A stretch of DNA of 54,564 nucleotides, taken from positions 1-54,564 of IMG/VR virus record IMGVR_UViG_3300045999_012682, one strand, 5' to 3'. Source of the DNA: a virus. Lineage: Duplodnaviria; Caudoviricetes. Each line of letters begins with the position of its first letter. The first letter of the stretch is position 1. Under the pieces are notes generated by a model. That model saw only the letters and a list, made by a program, of their open reading frames with translations, was not told the DNA's origin and searched no databases. The translations under genes and the position numbers were made by a program. Of this stretch, positions 28,755-39,606 are shown one piece after another.

Positions 28755-29354
28755 ATGGCCCAAACTATTTTTGTTTGTCATAATTGCTTTAATACTTTTG
28801 AACGCACTGGAAATGCAGGTGCAATTTGTAGGTCAAAACTTAAAAAAAGAGGCTATGTATTTTGTTCAAAAAATTGTGGTTCATTTAAACATGGTGGCTA
28901 CAAAAACAAAACCCCTGAATATAGCTCTTGGTGCGCAATGAAAAGTAGGTGCAATAATCCCTCTCACGAATCGTATGCTCGTTACGGCGGCCGTGGAATA
29001 ACCTATGATTCTTCTTGGGAAGACTTTACGGTGTTTCTGGCAGATATGGGCAAAAAACCAGATTCCAAAATGGAATTAGAAAGAATCGATAATAATAAAA
29101 ATTATTGCAAAGAAAACTGTCGTTGGGCTACTCACAAAGAACAGACACGTAATCGCGGAGGAAAACGTGCTACAAGAATTTACACATTTGATGGGAAAAC
29201 AATGTGCATTGCAGACTGGGCAAAAGAAGTTGGTATTAGCCCTCAGTCAATGCAAAAAAGATTAAATAATAACTGGCCATTAGAAAAAGCCTTTTCCAAA
29301 GAAAAACACGATGGAAAAGGCGGTACACATATTAAACCAAAACAAAGTTTATAA
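28755..29354 (+). CDS. free-standing HNH homing endonuclease, antisense to structural operon
   Basis: EYSSWCAMKSRC...YGGRGI...FLADMG...LERIDNNKNYCKENCRWAT; N-terminal CxxC...FCSxxC. Confidence 0.85.
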   Translation: MAQTIFVCHNCFNTFERTGNAGAICRSKLKKRGYVFCSKNCGSFKHGGYKNKTPEYSSWCAMKSRCNNPSHESYARYGGRGITYDSSWEDFTVFLADMGKKPDSKMELERIDNNKNYCKENCRWATHKEQTRNRGGKRATRIYTFDGKTMCIADWAKEVGISPQSMQKRLNNNWPLEKAFSKEKHDGKGGTHIKPKQSL

Positions 29355-34057: not shown

Positions 34058-35209
34058 TCAGACAGCACCGTCATCGGCAAGGAAGCTGAATGCAGTGGTC
34101 ACGAAGTCCTTGTTAAGGATTTCAAAACCAGCATACAGTTGCCAAATCAGGATGATGAATCGGCTGAAGTCATCATTATTATTGATGAGAACTTGAGCGT
34201 TCGGACCACCGATACCCACGCCAATTGACTGAGGACCAAAGAAGTAACCTTGAGAAACTTCTTGGCTGCTGTAGGAAGGAGTGTCGGTGAAGCTTGCGCT
34301 CACGTTTTTGGTCGGGAAGTTGGTCGACTCATAGAACTTCACACCTTCAAACTGGACGCCAGTAGGCATTACAGGCTCACCAGCCAGGAAGTAACCCTGA
34401 CCAGCCTGGGGACCCATGTAGAAGCTGGCGTTGTTAGGCATCATGGGGTTGCCCATGTACATGCCTTGACCAGGATTACCAGCGTAGCGGGCAATCTCAC
34501 GGAAGTCCGGATCACGACGCAGGTGCATCATGAAAGTAGGATCGCAAATGCAGCGATACAGACCATCAGCAAAGGTCGGTACATTGCGCTTACGCAGATC
34601 CTTCACCACTTCCAGCAGGTCAGTACGCACCTGGAACTGCTGCACTTGAGCGGCATACTCAGCGGTGGTGTAGGCAATACGACCGGAAGAATCTTTGGTC
34701 TTGCCACCAGGGAAATAGTAGCCGCCCTGGGTGGTAGAAGCTGCACCATTAGCTTCGGCTTTGGCGAGTTCATCAATGAACACGCGGTCGCGCCAACGAC
34801 GGTAGTCATCGAGCAGCGTCAGGCTACCGATGGACTGGTGGAACATGTTGAGGTTGCCCGTGTCCAGCAGGAGACGCTGGGCCGTGATCAGGGTCTCACG
34901 AGCAATCTTGAAGGTCGAAGGTTGGGTCGGATCACCCGGATCTGCAGGACCAGTATATTCCTTAAGCACCACCAGGACTTTTTCTTTGGTGATGTTACGG
35001 CTGTTAGCGGTACCGATAGTTTGATCGGAAATACGCTCACGGCTGTCCTTAGTACCAGGGGTACTCCAGAACTTGTAGCGATCTAACTGAACAGTTTGAC
35101 CAGGCTGACGAGTGAAGTCGTGAACGACCACAGGCTCGACTGCCATTTCTGCGATATACGCAGGGTGGGGACGGTAAAGTTCCGCACCTAAGATTTTTGG
35201 AAAATCGTT
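34058..35209 (-). CDS. major capsid protein, exon 2
   Basis: Frame continues upstream of the listed ATG as NDFPKILGAELYRPHPAYIAEMAVEP; position between scaffold and decoration genes; N4-gp56-like features (PGQTVQLDRY, DDFSRF). Confidence 0.85.
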   Translation of the reverse strand, partial: NDFPKILGAELYRPHPAYIAEMAVEPVVVHDFTRQPGQTVQLDRYKFWSTPGTKDSRERISDQTIGTANSRNITKEKVLVVLKEYTGPADPGDPTQPSTFKIARETLITAQRLLLDTGNLNMFHQSIGSLTLLDDYRRWRDRVFIDELAKAEANGAASTTQGGYYFPGGKTKDSSGRIAYTTAEYAAQVQQFQVRTDLLEVVKDLRKRNVPTFADGLYRCICDPTFMMHLRRDPDFREIARYAGNPGQGMYMGNPMMPNNASFYMGPQAGQGYFLAGEPVMPTGVQFEGVKFYESTNFPTKNVSASFTDTPSYSSQEVSQGYFFGPQSIGVGIGGPNAQVLINNNDDFSRFIILIWQLYAGFEILNKDFVTTAFSFLADDGAV

Positions 35210-36034
35210 CTCCTGGTCTCTAGTTTCTTAGAGGGGTGGACTATCTCTTCATCCCTGTGGGATGCCGGACGCTAAATCTGGTATTACGTAACAAGATCGT
35301 GTTACACCCAGTAGTCTCTGCACCTTCCAATCACGGCTTGATTGGCTTGGCTCAGGATTACCCTCGTCTTTACGTTAGGGCTTCCCTGAATTCATCCGGT
35401 TTGCACTCATCGATTGCTCGGTGAGGTGACAACGTTGAGCGTTCAGTTGAGGCATGCTATGCTTTGGAAACTTGTTTATGAACAAAATGAATCCAAAACT
35501 TGTTCCTGGATTTGGTAATCTTTACTTGACAGAAGAAGGAAAAGCTTTTGAAAAACAACTTGATCCCGACAATCAAGAATATTTTCGAGAGATTCCTATT
35601 AGTTCAACCAGTGTTTACGACCGTATTTCAGTTCTTGTAAATGGAAAAAGAAAACGCTTTCATCTTCATGTCTTGATGGCAGTTGTTTTTTTAGGATTAG
35701 ACCTGCGTTCACATGGAACCAGTAACTTTTCCTTACAAGTTGATCACAAAGATAATGACAAGAGAAATAATCAACTTGGCAATCTTGAGATCGTTACCAA
35801 ACAAGAAAATTTAACAAGAGCCTGGAAGAGCGGTTGTTATAAAAACAATGGCTTTGCCAGTAAAGGAAAACCGAAGAAGTCTTTGAGAAAGTTTTCTTCG
35901 GATGACGTGGCTCAGATCAAAGCTTTAAAAGAAGCCGGTCTTTCTTATCGAAAGATTGCTGAAAAGTTTGACTGTAATCACGGAGCTATTTACCAAATCT
36001 TGAAGGGCTATACCTACCAGGATCTGAACTAGCT
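35210..36034 (-). ncRNA. group I intron (825 nt) in major capsid gene
   Basis: P GAATTCAGGGAA (35382-35393), Q AATCCTGAGC (35350-35359), R GTGCAGAGACTA (35312-35323), S AAGAGATAGTCC (35238-35249); P7 GACTA/TAGTC; exon 1 ends in U, intron ends in G; IGS CGTTGTCA. Confidence 0.93.
35478..36032 (+). CDS. intron-encoded HNH homing endonuclease with C-terminal HTH (antisense)
   Basis: HLHVLMAVVFLG...QVDHKDNDKRNNQLGNLEIVTKQENL; GLSYRKIAEKF; TGCTATGCT extended -10-like site at 35455 suggests start 35478. Confidence 0.88.
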   Translation: MNKMNPKLVPGFGNLYLTEEGKAFEKQLDPDNQEYFREIPISSTSVYDRISVLVNGKRKRFHLHVLMAVVFLGLDLRSHGTSNFSLQVDHKDNDKRNNQLGNLEIVTKQENLTRAWKSGCYKNNGFASKGKPKKSLRKFSSDDVAQIKALKEAGLSYRKIAEKFDCNHGAIYQILKGYTYQDLN

Positions 36035-36046
36035 ATCAATAAACAC
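36035..36046 (-). CDS. major capsid protein, exon 1 (MFID)
   Basis: GTG TTT ATT GAT with GGAGG upstream; joins in frame to exon 2 giving MFIDNDFPKILGAELYRPHP. Confidence 0.85.
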
Positions 36047-36145
36047 CTTGGTGTATCCTCCAGTGTCAGTGTTTTTATCGGGTGAAAGATAAAGACACGT
36101 GTGTCTTATCTAACACAAATTTTAGCAGACAGTAAACTTAGATGC

Positions 36146-36895
36146 TTACACGTACTGCGTGGATGCATACGGAGTTACACCGTATTTAGCGCTTGCTGTG
36201 TTGCTGGATCCAGGGGATTCTGGATCAATGGCCATACCTTGCTGGAATCCTGGGATTCCAGTCATCTGGACTACGTTGGAAACGCCTCCCCCAAGAAGAC
36301 CACCTAATCCAGCAAGAGCTGGAAGAGCGCCCATATAAAGACCTTGTGCTAAACGGTTTGCATCTACCTTGGATTGCGCGTACTTCTGTGCTTTTAGAGT
36401 TTTGTCTCCATACTCGACAGCTTTGTCGAAAGCTGCTTTTGCGGTAGATGTTGCACCTGCTTTAGCCGCTTCGGTCCCACGTTTAATGTAGGGAAGAGCA
36501 GCCTCGCCATACTTATCTGTGATGTCCTGCACGTTTGCCCTGGTTAGCTGAGAAGATTTTGCTCGAGATTGAATCCCCGATCCAACCAATCCACCAAGCG
36601 TAGCGGCGCCTGCCGCTTCAAGAAGAATACGCCCTGGATCTTTATCCTCACCTCCCATTAGGTTCCCAGCAACAGAGCCGCCTGCACTAATAAGCCCATA
36701 TGCCAAGGGAGCATATTGGGCACTATTAGAGGGACTTAAAGAGTTAGGTAGCTTACCTAAATACTTGCCGGCAAGGAGGTCTGTTTTATTGAGACCTCCT
36801 TCAATAGCACCAAGTAAACGATCTCTTTTAGATCCTTGAGGAACGGCGCCGCGTGCTTCACTAACGTATGCTGCACCACGACTTAACATTCCCAT
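36146..36895 (-). CDS. Gly/Ala-rich putative virion protein
   Basis: 249 aa with hydrophobic Gly-rich segments. Confidence 0.7.
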   Translation of the reverse strand: MGMLSRGAAYVSEARGAVPQGSKRDRLLGAIEGGLNKTDLLAGKYLGKLPNSLSPSNSAQYAPLAYGLISAGGSVAGNLMGGEDKDPGRILLEAAGAATLGGLVGSGIQSRAKSSQLTRANVQDITDKYGEAALPYIKRGTEAAKAGATSTAKAAFDKAVEYGDKTLKAQKYAQSKVDANRLAQGLYMGALPALAGLGGLLGGGVSNVVQMTGIPGFQQGMAIDPESPGSSNTASAKYGVTPYASTQYV

Positions 36896-36899
36896 GGCA

Positions 36900-37856
36900 T
36901 CACTCCATTACAAACAGTTTGTTTGCAACAACTTGAGGCTGGGCTTGATTCAGAAGACGCCAGGCTTGTGCCGGATCTACATCCATTTGCTGCTTGAAGC
37001 TACCCCAGAAGTTTTCAGGCTGTTGGGGAGCTGCGGCTGCAGGGGGTGCAGGGAAGTTGCCGTATGCGGCTTGAGCAGGAGCAGTGGGATAACCACGGGT
37101 CTCCAGCTGAGCCTCATTTTCATATACAGGATATGGACCTTCTGGACCAAAGAACTTCAGAGTGTAATCACTCAGAACATCTGGATTGGTCAGAATCTCG
37201 TTGTAAGCAAGATTCTCGGTATGCTCGTTAGTAGCAAAAACTGCATAACCTTGAATTAAATTTTGTGCTCGATGCCCCCAGGCAACAGCACTATCCAGCA
37301 TTCCTTCCAGGTTTAGTGCGTACTGGTTTAGAAGGGCTGGAGCCTCCACCCCGAACGCGTCGATCACCTGACGGCTTTCCTGACTCAGACCCAGGTAATC
37401 CGCGATTTGCTCCAAGGAGGGACTCGAGGAAGTTTGGGAAGAGCTGGGCGATGAGACCTGGTTGGTTGACCAAGTCTGCGCTACCGAGTTCGGCGTAGGC
37501 TGGACGCTGGGAAGTCCGTAATTGGCCGGGGTATACGCTGTCGTCGGAGCTGATGGTTGCCCCTGGAACGGGGATTGAACTGGAGCGCTCAGTAAGTTCA
37601 CCACCTTGTTGAACGCCGACTCCCATGGATTCCCCGTCGGGGTTTCCGGTTGGGATTGGGGGACGTACTGAGTAGGGGCGGATTGGTAACTGATATTCGG
37701 CTGAGGTGTCGTTACCTGGTAACCCTGGGTTGCTGCTTGGTACGCCACCGGAGCCGCTTGGTAATTGCTTGGTGCTGGCGCCACGTAGCTGCTCGGAGCC
37801 ACCGCCGCTGGTACGGGGCTCGTCTGTGGGATCGATTGGACGGTAGCGTCCTGCAT
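36900..37856 (-). CDS. putative capsid scaffolding protein
   Basis: AAAGGAG RBS; Pro/Gln-rich N-terminus; lies between portal and capsid genes. Confidence 0.65.
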   Translation of the reverse strand: MQDATVQSIPQTSPVPAAVAPSSYVAPAPSNYQAAPVAYQAATQGYQVTTPQPNISYQSAPTQYVPQSQPETPTGNPWESAFNKVVNLLSAPVQSPFQGQPSAPTTAYTPANYGLPSVQPTPNSVAQTWSTNQVSSPSSSQTSSSPSLEQIADYLGLSQESRQVIDAFGVEAPALLNQYALNLEGMLDSAVAWGHRAQNLIQGYAVFATNEHTENLAYNEILTNPDVLSDYTLKFFGPEGPYPVYENEAQLETRGYPTAPAQAAYGNFPAPPAAAAPQQPENFWGSFKQQMDVDPAQAWRLLNQAQPQVVANKLFVME

Positions 37857-39606
37857 AACTCATCTCCTTTTGTAAGGCTTCTAAAGTTCGATACAGATAT
37901 GGCGTTAAATCCAATCTTGGATCCGCAGCCATCGGAAGATCCGGTGCTTGCGGGTGAGGAGTCTGCATCATGCCCCCCACTAGTTTTGCAAATGCAGAGT
38001 ATGCACCCTGCAATTCGTTCACCATCCTGAATGGGAACCCAGATAACATCTCGGCTCGTTCCTCATCCGTCTTAGACGGAAAGAGGTATTTCAGTGCTTC
38101 AATGCTATCAACACCTAATTCCTGAAGGTTGCGTACCACAATGGAGTTGTTCAAGATATCCTGCGTGGAATCTTCATAGACAGGTCCAAGCCATCTCCAA
38201 AGCATGGTGACGTCACCATCAGGAATTAAACCCTGAACGCCTGGAGGAATCTGTTGTGCCTCCACACATGCAACCATAAGTTGTTTAATCTGTGCATTAT
38301 ATTGTTTTAAAGCTTCTTCATAAGCAGCAACTTCATCTTCTGGAGCCCCTTTTACTGGAGAAATAGGCTTTTCAATTTGTGCTGCTTGTGCCAAACTATC
38401 TTTAAATAGTTGTTCCTCTTGATAAACAATTAATTCAAGACAACGACAAATGCCATGGGTGTAAATAGCATTCGCTTTTTTCTTGGATGTTGCAGATACA
38501 CGGCCAAACAATGATTTATATTCAGTTGCTGTCACACCTGCTGAAATAGAAAGCTCATCAACGCCACCAAGTGCTGTGCGGATCTCTTCTCGATACTGAC
38601 GGGCAAATGCGTTTTGGTCACCAGTGATGGCATCAGGGACAATGTAACCAACTCGATCGTTCGGTTCCAGGTTTGCAATGATGCGTGGAACACGGAGTTG
38701 ACCATCCACACCGCGCATGATGGGATCTGCTTTAAACCGTGATTGGCTTAATGCACCCAGACCAGTAAAACCAGAGTTTGCTGCAATAGAGGGACGTTGG
38801 ACTGACATGTCTCCACCAGCTTCCATTAGGTCACTCTTTGGCCTTGAGGAAAGAAGAGTTGGATTACCAAAGAACTGAACATTCTTCCGCATGGTGCGAA
38901 CCATTTCGTCATGAATGACAATATGATTTGCCATCCCATCAAATTCACCAACCCCTTCATTGGAGAAACCTTTGGGATTATTAAAAATCTCTACGCAGGG
39001 AATAAAACCAAGAGTGTTTTTAAAAGTTTTAGTGCGTCCTAAAGCGGTGTAATTTGTTGTTTCAAATGAAAGTTCACCTTCTGAATGAGTTTCTTCAATA
39101 GTGTCTGATTTAATAGCTAGTCGGATGTAACGTTTAGCACCTTGTTCAAATGCTGCGCCACCTGCTCCAAGAGTGGCAAGATTAATACCGTCTGTAGCAC
39201 CAAAGCCTTTACGAACTTTGTAGCTATAGATAATTACCACTTCATCCAGCTCACCATCAACGTTATAAAACGAGCGGTACTCATGAGCACGGAAGTAGTA
39301 GAGACGATAGCTGAATTTGGTAGGACGAATGTAAAACAGGCCTTTACCGTCGCAAAGAAAATACTCCCAAATCGAATCGAGCCTGGTGTCAAGCTTGTTG
39401 TACTTCAGGACACGATCAATAAAATCTTTACGTTGATTACCAAAGTTATCTTGGGAGGGAAAAAACTCAACTCCTTGGCGAATGCCAAAAAGTTTCATCT
39501 GTGCAATATGAGATGCAATGATACCCGTATCGACGGTCATCGACCCATCTTTTTCAAGATAGGAATCAACCATCTCTTTAAGACGATACTTTGCATCCAT
39601 TGACAT
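37291..39606 (-). CDS. portal protein
   Basis: Downstream of terminase; NTLGFIPCVEIFNNP...GVGEFD, SAGVTATE; long C-terminal extension overlapping the scaffold gene. Confidence 0.75.
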   Translation of the reverse strand: MSMDAKYRLKEMVDSYLEKDGSMTVDTGIIASHIAQMKLFGIRQGVEFFPSQDNFGNQRKDFIDRVLKYNKLDTRLDSIWEYFLCDGKGLFYIRPTKFSYRLYYFRAHEYRSFYNVDGELDEVVIIYSYKVRKGFGATDGINLATLGAGGAAFEQGAKRYIRLAIKSDTIEETHSEGELSFETTNYTALGRTKTFKNTLGFIPCVEIFNNPKGFSNEGVGEFDGMANHIVIHDEMVRTMRKNVQFFGNPTLLSSRPKSDLMEAGGDMSVQRPSIAANSGFTGLGALSQSRFKADPIMRGVDGQLRVPRIIANLEPNDRVGYIVPDAITGDQNAFARQYREEIRTALGGVDELSISAGVTATEYKSLFGRVSATSKKKANAIYTHGICRCLELIVYQEEQLFKDSLAQAAQIEKPISPVKGAPEDEVAAYEEALKQYNAQIKQLMVACVEAQQIPPGVQGLIPDGDVTMLWRWLGPVYEDSTQDILNNSIVVRNLQELGVDSIEALKYLFPSKTDEERAEMLSGFPFRMVNELQGAYSAFAKLVGGMMQTPHPQAPDLPMAADPRLDLTPYLYRTLEALQKEMSYAGRYRPIDPTDEPRTSGGGSEQLRGASTKQLPSGSGGVPSSNPGLPGNDTSAEYQLPIRPYSVRPPIPTGNPDGESMGVGVQQGGELTERSSSIPVPGATISSDDSVYPGQLRTSQRPAYAELGSADLVNQPGLIAQLFPNFLESLLGANRGLPGSESGKPSGDRRVRGGGSSPSKPVRTKPGRNAG

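What the first reader, a model, noticed from the sequence alone, without database searches (positions are those of the whole stretch)
35210..36046. Major capsid gene split after codon 4 by a group I intron with an antisense HNH gene inside the P1 loop
Seen: exon 1 is only GTG TTT ATT GAT with a GGAGG RBS. The intron ends in G and exon 2 starts AAC GAT. P/Q/R/S elements resemble the IC3 cyanobacterial tRNA-Leu intron type. The internal guide CGUUGUCA (35427-35434) pairs with exon-1 UGAU (G.U at the splice site) and with exon-2 AACG (P10). It lies about 600 nt from the 5' splice site because the HNH ORF fills loop L1 in the opposite orientation, closed by AGC..GUUCAG/CUGAAC.GCU pairing. Known: most described phage group I introns sit in DNA-metabolism, lysin, terminase or psbA genes. 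Inference: the most abundant virion protein depends on splicing (unspliced RNA stops at codon 6), and the endonuclease mRNA is antisense to the precursor and could time capsid synthesis.
Basis: partly seen in the sequence, partly recalled or inferred. Interest (0 to 1): 0.85.

Follow-up and report, generated by a model that had tools for sequence, protein, structure and literature searches.

The report
Mobile intron splitting a cyanophage capsid gene
The major capsid gene of this freshwater cyanophage is interrupted after its fourth codon by a mobile self-splicing group I intron that carries a homing-endonuclease gene on the opposite strand, a real and widespread element of a kind already described in another phage.

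Summary
On the minus strand, GGAGG is followed by GTG TTT ATT GAT (36046-36035), an 825-nt intron (36034-35210) and exon 2 (35209-34058). Rfam RF00028 scores the core at 94.3 bits. The intron-less relative Synechococcus phage S-EIVl begins MFIDTDFPK... at the same GTG. Of 80 related viral contigs, 57 lack the intron at exactly this site and 23 carry it. Of those 23, 14 have an intact antisense HNH gene, 2 have a 276-nt ORF-less form and 7 are cut. A DNA scan found at least 119 intron-bearing contigs. Eight base pairs show compensatory changes. The HNH gene is I-HmuI-like, lies in loop L1 and has median dN/dS 0.11. The intron is scattered over the capsid tree, with at least 15 changes. The host protein has an HK97 capsid fold. 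Splicing and homing are inferred, not shown. The IC3 typing is not supported: a hairpin between P7 and P3' points to subgroup IA. A spliced capsid intron with a bottom-strand endonuclease ORF is already published for mycobacteriophage LittleE (PMC3706429). This is a new member of a known kind.

The parts
36088..36110 (-). Conserved hairpin between the upstream 249-aa gene and the capsid RBS. It may be a terminator or a processing site. It is context, not part of the intron.
   Evidence: Read. A hairpin with different stem letters stands at the same place in S-EIVl. The scan lists an overlapping terminator-like site on the plus strand.
36057..36061 (-). Ribosome-binding site GGAGG, 10 nt before the GTG start.
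   Evidence: GGAGGAT is conserved before the GTG in all loci that reach it.
36035..36046 (-). Exon 1 of the major capsid gene: GTG TTT ATT GAT (M F I D). The last U forms the U.G pair of P1.
   Evidence: The same 12 nt directly precede AAC/ACC GAY TTY in 57 of 80 intron-less viral loci and in S-EIVl.
35210..36034 (-). Group I intron, 825 nt, ending in G at 35210.
   Evidence: RF00028 at 94.3 bits. Precisely absent from the intron-less alleles. The intron is 824-827 nt in 14 relatives.
36024..36034 (-). Intron 5' end AGCUAGUUCAG. It forms the inner part of P1 and the 5' strand of P1a (GUUCAG). The CTAG at 36029-36032 is a palindrome that gives a stop codon on both strands.
   Evidence: Invariant in 15 of 15 HNH-bearing introns.
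35487..36032 (+). Antisense HNH homing-endonuclease gene, I-HmuI-like, 181 aa from the conserved Met. The longest ORF starts at 35454. The gene fills loop L1, and its last codons are the complement of P1a/P1.
   Evidence: Pfam HNH_3 and phrog_59. PDB 1u3e at E 5.7e-5. 15 of 15 ORFs intact, median dN/dS 0.11.
35435..35463 (+). Weak candidate promoter for the HNH gene: TTGAGC, 17 nt, TATGCT (8 of 12 matches). The -35 part is the complement of the guide region. This is inference only.
   Evidence: Read. It falls below the threshold of the scan. TAnnnT is kept in 15 of 15 aligned introns. The -35 hexamer is altered in L077.
35427..35446 (-). 3' strand of P1a (CUGAAC, 35446-35441) and the internal guide CGUUGUCA (35434-35427). 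CGUU is the P10 guide and GUCA is the P1 guide.
   Evidence: The guide is invariant in 18 of 18 aligned introns.
35217..35425 (-). Ribozyme core. Helices: P2 35425-35406 (GCAA loop); P3 35399-35393 with 35271-35265; P4/P5 35388-35353; P6/P6a 35351-35322; P7 35316-35312 with 35243-35239; extra P7.1-like hairpin 35311-35278; P8 35264-35250; P9 35233-35218 (GAAA loop).
   Evidence: Rfam alignment. A hand-drawn structure of 68 pairs is 96.8% paired with 8 compensatory pairs, reached by 0 of 500 shuffles.
34058..35209 (-). Exon 2 of the major capsid gene (383 codons plus the stop), starting AAC GAT TTT (N D F P K).
   Evidence: 88% identical to the S-EIVl capsid ORF. phrog_1357 major head protein. 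HK97-fold capsid hits by Foldseek.

Best explanation
This is a mobile, self-splicing group I intron of IA-like architecture in the major capsid gene of an S-EIV1-like freshwater cyanophage.

Proposed mechanism, step by step:

1. The late transcript (minus strand) carries the RBS, four codons, the 825-nt intron and the rest of the gene.
2. The exon-1 end UGAU pairs with the guide GUCA 600 nt downstream to form P1, with U.G at the splice site.
3. The 550-nt complement of the HNH gene is looped out as L1, closed by GUUCAG/CUGAAC.
4. The core P2-P9 folds. A guanosine cofactor attacks the 5' splice site.
5. Exon-2 AACG pairs with CGUU (P10), and the exons are joined after the terminal G.
6. The joined message encodes the 387-aa capsid protein MFID|NDFPK...
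7. Unspliced RNA stops at codon 6.

The HNH gene is read from the other strand, necessarily from a promoter of its own. It makes an I-HmuI-like site-specific nuclease. In mixed infections this nuclease cuts or nicks intron-less capsid alleles near GTGTTYATTGAT|AACGA. Repair from the intron-bearing genome then copies the intron and some flanking sequence. This is homing.

Shown here: the anatomy, the exact insertion site, selection on the RNA structure, on the HNH protein and on the first 21 exon-2 codons, and the patchy distribution.

Inferred: splicing itself, the nuclease's activity and target, and its promoter and timing.
For: Ribozyme
- RF00028 scores 94.3 bits against a gathering score of 50, E 4.5e-23, over the full model length.
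- P1, P10, the U.G pair and the terminal G are all present.
- A hand-drawn structure of 68 pairs was counted on 18 introns (14 distinct). 96.8% of cells are paired. 8 pairs change on both sides (P2 x3, the P7.1-like hairpin x3, P9 x2) against a shuffled mean of 2.7, reached by 0 of 500 shuffles. Slid controls give 0-1.

Exact site
- The S-EIVl ORF starts GTG TTC ATT GAT ACC GAC and encodes MFIDTDFPK.
- 57 of 80 viral loci join the same 12 nt directly to exon 2.

The exon-2 start must be translated
- In intron-bearing loci the first 21 codons give 62 DNA variants but only 8 peptides among 138 loci, not de-duplicated.
- No in-frame start lies between the intron's in-frame TAA and the ATG at 35146.

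Host gene
- phrog_1357 major head protein, E 2.6e-15.
- AlphaFold2 model with pLDDT 79.4.
- Top Foldseek hits are phage capsids: 8i4l at E 1.4e-13, then 9vye and 8h89.

HNH gene
- Pfam HNH_3 is above its cut-off.
- I-HmuI (1u3e) matches at E 5.7e-5, with the VDHKDN..NN..NL motif aligned.
- 15 of 15 ORFs are intact, 181 aa, with no indels.
- Median dN/dS is 0.11 over the 99 of 105 pairs with dS above 0.02. Mean dS is 0.81.
- In the larger scan, 82 of 83 long introns keep an intact ORF.

Location in L1
- ORF-less 271-281-nt introns keep P1, P1a and the core but have a short hairpin in place of the ORF.

Mobility
- Intron presence needs at least 15 changes on an 82-row capsid tree, 10 of them forced by well-supported branches.
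- Near-identical capsids differ in intron state, for example L073 against L062, L066 and L069.
- On a tree of 200 nt upstream plus 60 nt downstream, only 7 changes are needed (shuffled mean 15.4, as low in 0 of 500). The flanks therefore travel with the intron.

Not an assembly artefact
- At least 119 IMG/VR stretches carry the intron/exon-2 junction.
Against: - No direct evidence of splicing. The single joined contig in an RNA library (X2: 176 nt, depth 4.5, skipping 825 nt between 35208 and 36034) differs from the window at 7 of 143 exon-2 positions. It could come from an intron-less phage, or from DNA in the library.
- No promoter or clear RBS for the HNH gene passed the scan. The candidate I name has only 8 of 12 matches.
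- The helices P3, P4, P6, P7 and P10 never vary, so they carry no covariation evidence.
- The two trees were built on different sets of rows. Recombination within capsid genes could inflate the count of changes.
- The exon-1 start site lies within the span a starting ribosome would cover (recalled knowledge). How P1 forms efficiently for the most abundant late protein is unexplained.
- The C-terminal HTH matches are below Pfam cut-offs (HTH_23 23.6 against 24.6 bits).
Confidence: 0.88

Rival explanations
1. The intron splices, but the main role of the HNH nuclease is interference competition rather than, or as well as, homing. By cutting the intron-less capsid gene of co-infecting relatives it would cripple their virion production.
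For: - Intron-less and intron-bearing alleles with identical target sequence coexist. In the mixed junction tally (not de-duplicated), GTGTTYATTGAT|AACGA is the commonest context in both classes.
- A paper reports such a role for an intron endonuclease of phage PhiPA3 (PMC11620839; search listing and start of abstract only).
- The target lies in the most essential late gene.
Against: - Nothing here separates this role from ordinary homing.
- The flank tree indicates that the intron is actually copied with its flanks.
- The ORF-less introns fit the classical homing cycle.
Confidence: 0.25
2. The HNH gene is a passenger or an inactive remnant. The patchy distribution would then come from ordinary recombination and precise intron loss, not from endonuclease-driven homing.
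For: - Nuclease activity is not tested.
- 14 ORF-less introns persist (2, 12), so the intron can survive without the gene.
- Capsid genes of these phages clearly recombine.
Against: - dN/dS is 0.11 with a mean dS of 0.81, and 15 of 15 reading frames are intact. 82 of 83 are intact in the larger set. This is not how a dead gene looks.
- The catalytic HNH motif aligns with that of I-HmuI.
Confidence: 0.07
3. The element is not spliced. The capsid protein starts at the internal ATG (MAVEP, 35146), and the intron plus the HNH gene is just an insertion in the leader.
For: An ATG-started 362-aa ORF exists.
Against: - The 21 codons upstream of that ATG are conserved as protein (8 peptides from 62 DNA variants). 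They can only be translated after splicing.
- The family's N-terminus extends 4-7 residues before DFP in relatives down to 40% identity.
- The ribozyme shows compensatory changes.
- No Shine-Dalgarno motif stands before the ATG.
Confidence: 0.03

Closest known systems
Capsid-gene intron of mycobacteriophage LittleE (Pope et al. 2013, PMC3706429; abstract, introduction passages, Figure 10 legend and section 19 read)
   Same: - A phage major capsid gene is interrupted by an insertion of about 820 bp (819 bp there, 825 here).
- There is a U at the end of exon 1 and a G at the end of the intron.
- A homing-endonuclease ORF lies on the bottom strand, that is, antisense.
- Related genomes lack the insertion.
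- An ORF-less relative of the intron occurs elsewhere (265 bp, in a tail gene of BAKA).
   Different: - LittleE's splicing was shown by RT-PCR and N-terminal sequencing. Here splicing is inferred.
- The authors could not type that intron firmly. Here Rfam and covariation give a full group I model.
- The LittleE site is inside the gene, near the maturation cleavage. Here it follows codon 4, 12 nt after the start codon.
- The hosts and phage lineages are unrelated.
- I did not compare the two sequences.
I-HmuI family of intron-encoded HNH nicking endonucleases (SPO1/SP82 DNA polymerase introns; PDB 1u3e). I-PfoP3I of cyanophage Pf-WMP3 is a related case (PMC3428280; listing and start of abstract only)
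   Same: - The protein is the same size: 181 aa here, 174 aa for I-HmuI.
- It has the HNH motif.
- The sequence match is E 5.7e-5 over residues 43-174.
- It is encoded inside a phage group I intron.
   Different: - Identity is low, about 30% at best to any phage HNH.
- Those genes lie in the sense orientation in DNA-polymerase introns (recalled).
- Nicking against double-strand cutting is unknown here.
Small ORF-less group I introns in terminase genes of Vibrio phages (OP793884.1, MG592553.1) and in Klebsiella/Escherichia jumbo phages
   Same: They are the nearest DNA matches of the ribozyme core: 72-77% identity over 165-200 nt. In the Vibrio phages they sit in late structural or packaging genes that are annotated in 4-5 pieces.
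   Different: They have no endonuclease gene inside and interrupt different host genes. Their structures were not examined here.
Antisense homing-endonuclease genes in nuclear rDNA group I introns (e.g. position L2066; PMC9548176, title and start of abstract only). segD of T4 is a related case: a free-standing endonuclease gene antisense between genes 23 and 24 (PMC2988022, passages read)
   Same: The endonuclease gene is oriented against the host gene, so it needs its own transcription. For T4 the review notes that all other endonuclease genes share the orientation of their neighbours.
   Different: The rDNA cases are eukaryotic and use His-Cys box enzymes. segD is not inside an intron.

Membership tests
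Group I intron (Rfam RF00028) | Covariance-model score above the curated gathering score | tested here: met
   94.3 bits against 50, E 4.5e-23, model positions 1-253 of 253. Repeated.
Group I intron (Rfam RF00028) | P1 formed by the exon-1 end and an internal guide, with U.G at the 5' splice site | tested here: met
   UGAU pairs with GUCA (35430-35427). The minimum-free-energy fold gives 7 bp. U at -1 is present in all 17 intron alleles that reach exon 1. C at -1 occurs only in 4 intron-less alleles.
Group I intron (Rfam RF00028) | Terminal G and a P10 pairing with exon 2 | tested here: met
   G at 35210. AACG pairs with CGUU as 4 invariant pairs. In the set found by protein, 23 of 23 intron alleles start exon 2 with AAC.
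Group I intron (Rfam RF00028) | Conserved core helices P3-P9, including the P7 pseudoknot, supported by covariation | tested here: met
   68 pairs, 96.8% paired, 8 compensatory pairs, 0 of 500 shuffles. The compensatory pairs lie in P2, the P7.1-like hairpin and P9. P3, P4, P6 and P7 are invariant and so uninformative.
Group I intron (Rfam RF00028) | Precise absence from homologous intron-less alleles | tested here: met
   S-EIVl and 57 of 80 viral loci.
Group I intron (Rfam RF00028) | Guanosine-dependent self-splicing | not testable with these tools
   Only one joined contig was found in one RNA library, and it could come from an intron-less phage.
   There is a 34-nt hairpin at 35311-35278 between P7 and P3'. 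It appears as a 38-nt insertion relative to the Rfam consensus. 3 compensatory pairs support it. That position is where P7.1/P7.2 of subgroup IA lie. No formal subgroup classifier was available.
HNH homing endonuclease, I-HmuI-like | HNH catalytic motif | tested here: met
   Pfam HNH_3 at 34.1 bits against 24.8. phrog_59 at E 1.8e-24. The motif aligns with that of 1u3e.
HNH homing endonuclease, I-HmuI-like | C-terminal helix-turn-helix DNA-binding module | tested here: inconclusive
   HTH_23 scores 23.6 bits (cut-off 24.6) and HTH_38 scores 22.7 (cut-off 27), both just below threshold. The alignment to I-HmuI runs through this region.
HNH homing endonuclease, I-HmuI-like | Site-specific cleavage or nicking of the intron-less allele | not testable with these tools
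   Indirect evidence only: the patchy distribution and the flanks that travel with the intron.
HK97-fold major capsid protein | Family profile match and HK97 fold | tested here: met
   phrog_1357 at E 2.6e-15. Model pLDDT 79.4. Foldseek top hits are phage capsid proteins with probability 1.00. There was no sequence match to PDB chains and no Pfam hit.

The most novel reading that the evidence does not exclude
The opposite-strand arrangement may be a functional circuit rather than an accident. In this reading, the HNH gene is fired early from a promoter whose -35 element is the complement of the ribozyme's guide sequence. Heavy late transcription of the capsid gene then collides with and silences it. 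Conversely, the HNH transcript is perfectly complementary to 550 nt of the capsid precursor and would delay splicing or capsid synthesis. In addition, the splice site lies 12 nt from the start codon, so a starting ribosome and P1 would exclude each other. Capsid output would then be gated by splicing. Together this would be a timing switch built from a selfish element.
Probability: 0.1. Interest if true: 0.75.

Novelty: new member of a known kind. Interest (0 to 1): 0.5.

Why it matters
**Annotation.** Automatic gene calls will give a truncated capsid protein (MAVEP...) in every intron-bearing genome of this widespread freshwater cyanophage lineage. At least 119 IMG/VR contigs are affected. 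Even the intron-less type phage S-EIVl lacks a correct capsid gene call in its GenBank record.

**Biology.** One natural population shows all three states of the homing cycle at one site: empty site, intron with endonuclease, and intron without endonuclease. The variation is enough to measure selection on the RNA, on the protein and on the target. That makes it a good field system for studying how mobile introns persist.

**Mechanism.** Two features raise a testable question about how splicing, translation start and antisense transcription are reconciled for the most highly expressed late gene. One is the antisense gene, whose last codons double as the P1 stem. The other is a splice site only 12 nt from the start codon.

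The principle itself, a spliced capsid intron with an opposite-strand endonuclease ORF, is already published for LittleE.

Tried and rejected
**RNA evidence.** The look-up of sequencing runs listed 24 runs, all kept as contigs. I laid 4 of them (X1, X2, X8, X19).
- X2 has one 176-nt contig that joins 35208 to 36034, and other contigs that carry the intron.
- Intron-less phages are common, and contigs carry no strand information. This therefore shows neither splicing nor HNH transcription.
- X1, X8 and X19 showed no joint.

**Promoter and terminator scan of 34900-36300.** It returned one promoter-like site inside the HNH ORF and one terminator-like site. Both counts are at or below the shuffle expectation, so neither is used as evidence.

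**Whole-molecule folding.** The fold of the 300-nt ORF-less intron (z -1.76) does not recover the pseudoknotted group I fold. I drew the structure by hand from the Rfam alignment instead. The short P1 fragments fold as proposed, but their z-scores are weak (-0.29 and -2.13).

**Searches that found nothing useful.**
- The capsid protein has no sequence match in the PDB and no Pfam hit. The fold search settled its identity.
- I looked for paralogues or free-standing copies of the HNH gene in the window and in all fetched loci. All 107 tblastn hits are the intron copy itself, at 70% identity or more.
- I looked for other group I introns in five whole records of relatives. Only the capsid intron was found, in 1 of 5. 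One further record, G001, starts inside the intron and gave no match.

**Literature.** Six searches found no paper describing an intron in S-EIV1-like phages.
- The S-EIV1 genome paper itself is not held, so I could not check its proteomics or annotation.
- Supplementary files were not consulted.
- The 2014 review of bacterial group I introns (PMC3984707, word search only) contains neither 'antisense', 'opposite' nor 'capsid'.

**Not resolved or not done.**
- I did not decide whether the ORF-less form is ancestral or a deletion derivative. It keeps both flanks of the ORF, which fits either.
- I did not compare the sequence with the LittleE or Tuc2009 introns.
Full report
**What is there**

The window is an IMG/VR virus record of 54,564 bases, linear and estimated 69% complete. 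Its closest named relative is Synechococcus phage S-EIVl, KJ410740.1.

The region from about 21 to 52 kb is a block of minus-strand ORFs. It includes:
- a large terminase (PF17289);
- a 771-aa portal-like protein (phrog_20475, E 7.7e-278);
- the capsid gene.

On the minus strand I read the following features:
- GGAGG at 36061-36057;
- GTG TTT ATT GAT at 36046-36035;
- then AGC TAG, which stops the frame;
- 825 nt ending in G at 35210;
- AAC GAT TTT... from 35209, in frame with the 362-aa ORF that the ORF list starts at MAVEP.

My first attempt used 35210 as the exon start and failed on frame. The exon starts at 35209.

**It is a group I intron**

RF00028 matches 35459-35217 (minus strand) at 94.3 bits against a gathering score of 50, E 4.5e-23. 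The match covers the whole model and is the only Rfam hit in the window.

The guide CGUUGUCA lies at 35434-35427. GUCA pairs with exon-1 UGAU, giving U.G at the splice site. CGUU pairs with exon-2 AACG.

Folding the 622 nt from the start codon to the guide gives two helices:
- a 7-bp P1, UGAUAGC with GUUGUCA;
- an inner helix, GUUCAG (36029-36024) with CUGAAC (35446-35441), that closes the long loop.

The same two helices form in the short relatives.

From the Rfam alignment I drew P2, P3, P4/P5, P6/P6a, P7 (a pseudoknot), P8, P9 and P10. I also drew an extra hairpin between P7 and P3'. I counted this structure on 18 intron cores, of which 14 are distinct:
- 96.8% of 952 cells are paired.
- 8 pairs change on both sides: three in P2, three in the extra hairpin and two in P9.
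- The shuffled mean is 2.7, and 0 of 500 shuffles reach the observed value.
- Sliding the 3' partners leaves 0-1 such pairs.
- P3, P4, P6, P7 and P10 never vary, so they say nothing either way.

**The splice site is exact**

S-EIVl has an uninterrupted 383-aa ORF that begins GTG TTC ATT GAT ACC GAC and encodes MFIDTDFPKILGAELYRPHPAYICEMAVEP. The DNA match of the window to S-EIVl comes in two pieces that flank the intron.

A protein-guided scan of IMG/VR found 596 relatives, of which the best 80 were kept. In these:
- 57 of 80 join GTGTTYMTTGAY directly to AAC/AAT/ACC/ACT GAY TTY;
- 23 of 80 carry ...CCAGGAG|AAC at the same point.

More distant capsid homologues, at 36-51% identity, also start 4-7 residues before the DFP motif. 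None starts at the MAVEP position.

Among intron-bearing loci, the 21 exon-2 codons upstream of the internal ATG give 62 DNA variants but only 8 peptides. This count covers 138 loci and is not de-duplicated between my two locus sets. There is no in-frame start between the intron's in-frame TAA and that ATG. These codons can therefore be translated only after splicing.

**The host gene is the major capsid gene**

- It matches phrog_1357, major head protein, at E 2.6e-15.
- Pfam and PDB sequence searches found nothing.
- An AlphaFold2 model built on a 37-row alignment reached pLDDT 79.4 and pTM 0.79.
- Its best Foldseek matches are capsid proteins: cyanophage P-SCSP1u (8i4l, E 1.4e-13), Pan3, Ralstonia phage GP4 and many other HK97-fold capsids.

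**The antisense gene**

The plus-strand ORF 35454-36032 matches HNH_3 (E 2.1e-8) and phrog_59 (E 1.8e-24). It also matches the solved I-HmuI (1u3e, E 5.7e-5), with the catalytic motif aligned. The best phage relatives are only about 30% identical.

In relatives the conserved start is the Met at 35487, giving 181 aa. All 15 copies (14 loci plus the window) are intact and have the same length.

Median dN/dS is 0.11 over the 99 of 105 pairs with dS above 0.02. Mean dS is 0.81. Nucleotide diversity is 0.148 in the ORF against 0.042 in the ribozyme core. This is an old, expressed, selected protein gene.

Several details tie the gene to the RNA structure:
- Its last codons (..YQDLN) are the complement of P1a and P1 and are invariant.
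- Its stop codon ends 2 nt from the 5' splice site.
- The palindrome CTAG (36029-36032) supplies the stop on both strands.

No paralogue exists in the window or in any fetched locus.

**The gene sits in L1**

Two loci of the first set (L003, L008) have a 276-nt intron. Twelve of the 95 complete introns in the larger scan are 271-281 nt. All of these keep P1, P1a and the whole core, but have a short hairpin where the ORF would be.

I examined the 116 new loci:
- 83 have long introns of 815-835 nt. Of these, 82 have an intact antisense ORF of 181-192 aa and one has an ORF truncated to 118 aa.
- 12 have short introns.
- 21 are cut by a contig end.

The scan for the intron-less junction also hit its limit, at 120 stretches. 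Both numbers are therefore lower bounds and give no frequency.

**Mobility**

I built a tree from exon 2, leaving out its first 60 nt (82 rows). On it, intron presence needs at least 15 changes, 10 of them forced by well-supported branches.

Capsids that are nearly identical differ in intron state:
- L073 against L062, L066 and L069;
- L043, L052 and L057 against L024 and L041;
- L025 against L031.

Between L073 and L069, the differences crowd into positions +2 to +53 of exon 2 and into the whole upstream flank.

On a tree of 200 nt upstream plus 60 nt downstream (71 rows, 17 with the intron), only 7 changes are needed. The shuffled mean is 15.4, and 0 of 500 shuffles are as low. The flanks therefore travel with the intron, as expected from co-conversion during homing.

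Two caveats apply. The two trees use different row sets, and recombination can inflate such counts.

The exon contexts point the same way. In the set found by protein, all 23 intron alleles start exon 2 with AAC. All 17 that reach exon 1 (window included) end it with U. Intron-less alleles also use AAT, ACC or ACT (21 of 58) and GAC (4 of 58). This fits the P1 and P10 requirements and perhaps target specificity.

**What is not shown**

Splicing, nuclease activity and HNH transcription are all inferred.

The RNA runs available were contigs only. One 176-nt contig in a metatranscriptome joins 35208 to 36034, with a one-letter ambiguity. It differs from the window at 7 of 143 exon-2 positions and may come from an intron-less phage.

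The promoter scan found nothing useful. By eye, TTGAGC-17-TATGCT (35435-35463, plus strand) is a possible promoter. Its TAnnnT is kept in 15 of 15 introns. It has only 8 of 12 matches, and its -35 hexamer overlaps the constrained guide region, so conservation there proves nothing.

**Comparison with what is known**

Group I introns in phage capsid genes are already in print. Pope et al. 2013 (PMC3706429; abstract, introduction, Figure 10 legend and section 19 read) report the following for mycobacteriophage LittleE:
- an 819-bp insertion in the capsid gene;
- splicing shown by RT-PCR and N-terminal sequencing;
- U at the exon-1 end and G at the intron end;
- a citation of a capsid intron in lactococcal phage Tuc2009.

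Antisense endonuclease genes are also known in nuclear rDNA introns (PMC9548176, title and abstract start). T4's segD lies antisense beside the capsid gene (PMC2988022, passages read).

Its IC3 typing is contradicted by the hairpin between P7 and P3'. This is the P7.1/P7.2 position typical of subgroup IA; that definition is recalled, though the names are confirmed as class-defining features in PMC3984707. The nearest DNA relatives of the core also point away from IC3. They are small introns in Vibrio phage terminase genes and in jumbo phages.

I found no paper on an intron in S-EIV1-like phages in six searches. The S-EIV1 genome paper is not held.

**Verdict**

This is a real, functional and widespread mobile group I intron with an opposite-strand I-HmuI-like HNH gene in L1, inserted after codon 4 of an HK97-type capsid gene. 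It is a new member of a known kind.

Its particular points of interest are:
- the splice site 12 nt from the start codon;
- the overlap of the endonuclease's 3' end with P1;
- the coexistence of all three allelic states in nature.

The regulatory reading, that antisense RNA acts as a timer, remains open but unsupported.

Noticed in passing
L001 2911-4137 (KJ410740.1 60784-62010): The GenBank record of Synechococcus phage S-EIVl does not annotate its major capsid gene. It lists an antisense ORF (AHV82227.1) and a C-terminal fragment (AHV82228.1). In fact a GTG-started 383-aa ORF (L001 2986-4137) is 88% identical to the window's capsid protein.
   Followed up: yes
window 36088-36110; L001 about 2917-2940: A hairpin between the upstream 249-aa gene and the capsid RBS is kept in S-EIVl, with different stem letters. 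It may be a terminator, an attenuator or an RNA-processing site ahead of the capsid message.
   Followed up: partly
window 36900-37856 and 37291-39606 (minus strand): The 318-aa Pro/Gln/Ala-rich ORF and the 771-aa portal-like ORF overlap by 566 nt in different frames. The portal profile covers residues 1-740, so the 318-aa ORF probably starts at a later codon. Alternatively, the overlap hides something else.
   Followed up: no
window 28755-29354 (+): This 199-aa plus-strand ORF has no Pfam hit. Apart from the HNH gene it is the only sizeable non-overlapping plus-strand ORF inside the long minus-strand block.
   Followed up: partly
L083 419-2909 (OP793884.1); L084 225-2063 (MG592553.1): The terminase large-subunit genes of two Vibrio phages are annotated in 4-5 pieces. 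The pieces are separated by gaps of about 230 nt that match this intron's core at 72-77% identity. These look like several ORF-less group I introns in one gene.
   Followed up: partly
window 35208/36034, run X2: One metatranscriptome contig (176 nt) has exactly the exon-exon joint. Other contigs of the same run carry the intron. This would be worth re-examining with raw, strand-specific reads.
   Followed up: partly
L002 1-121 (contig of 80,654 b): A contig rated 100% complete begins inside the intron. Its ends therefore fall within the capsid intron, and Rfam misses the intron there.
   Followed up: no
(contig names): Intron-bearing and intron-less capsid alleles occur on contigs that share the same dataset prefix. 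Examples are L002 with L006, L003 with L014, L010 with L021, and L043 with L048. Both types therefore coexist in single datasets.
   Followed up: no
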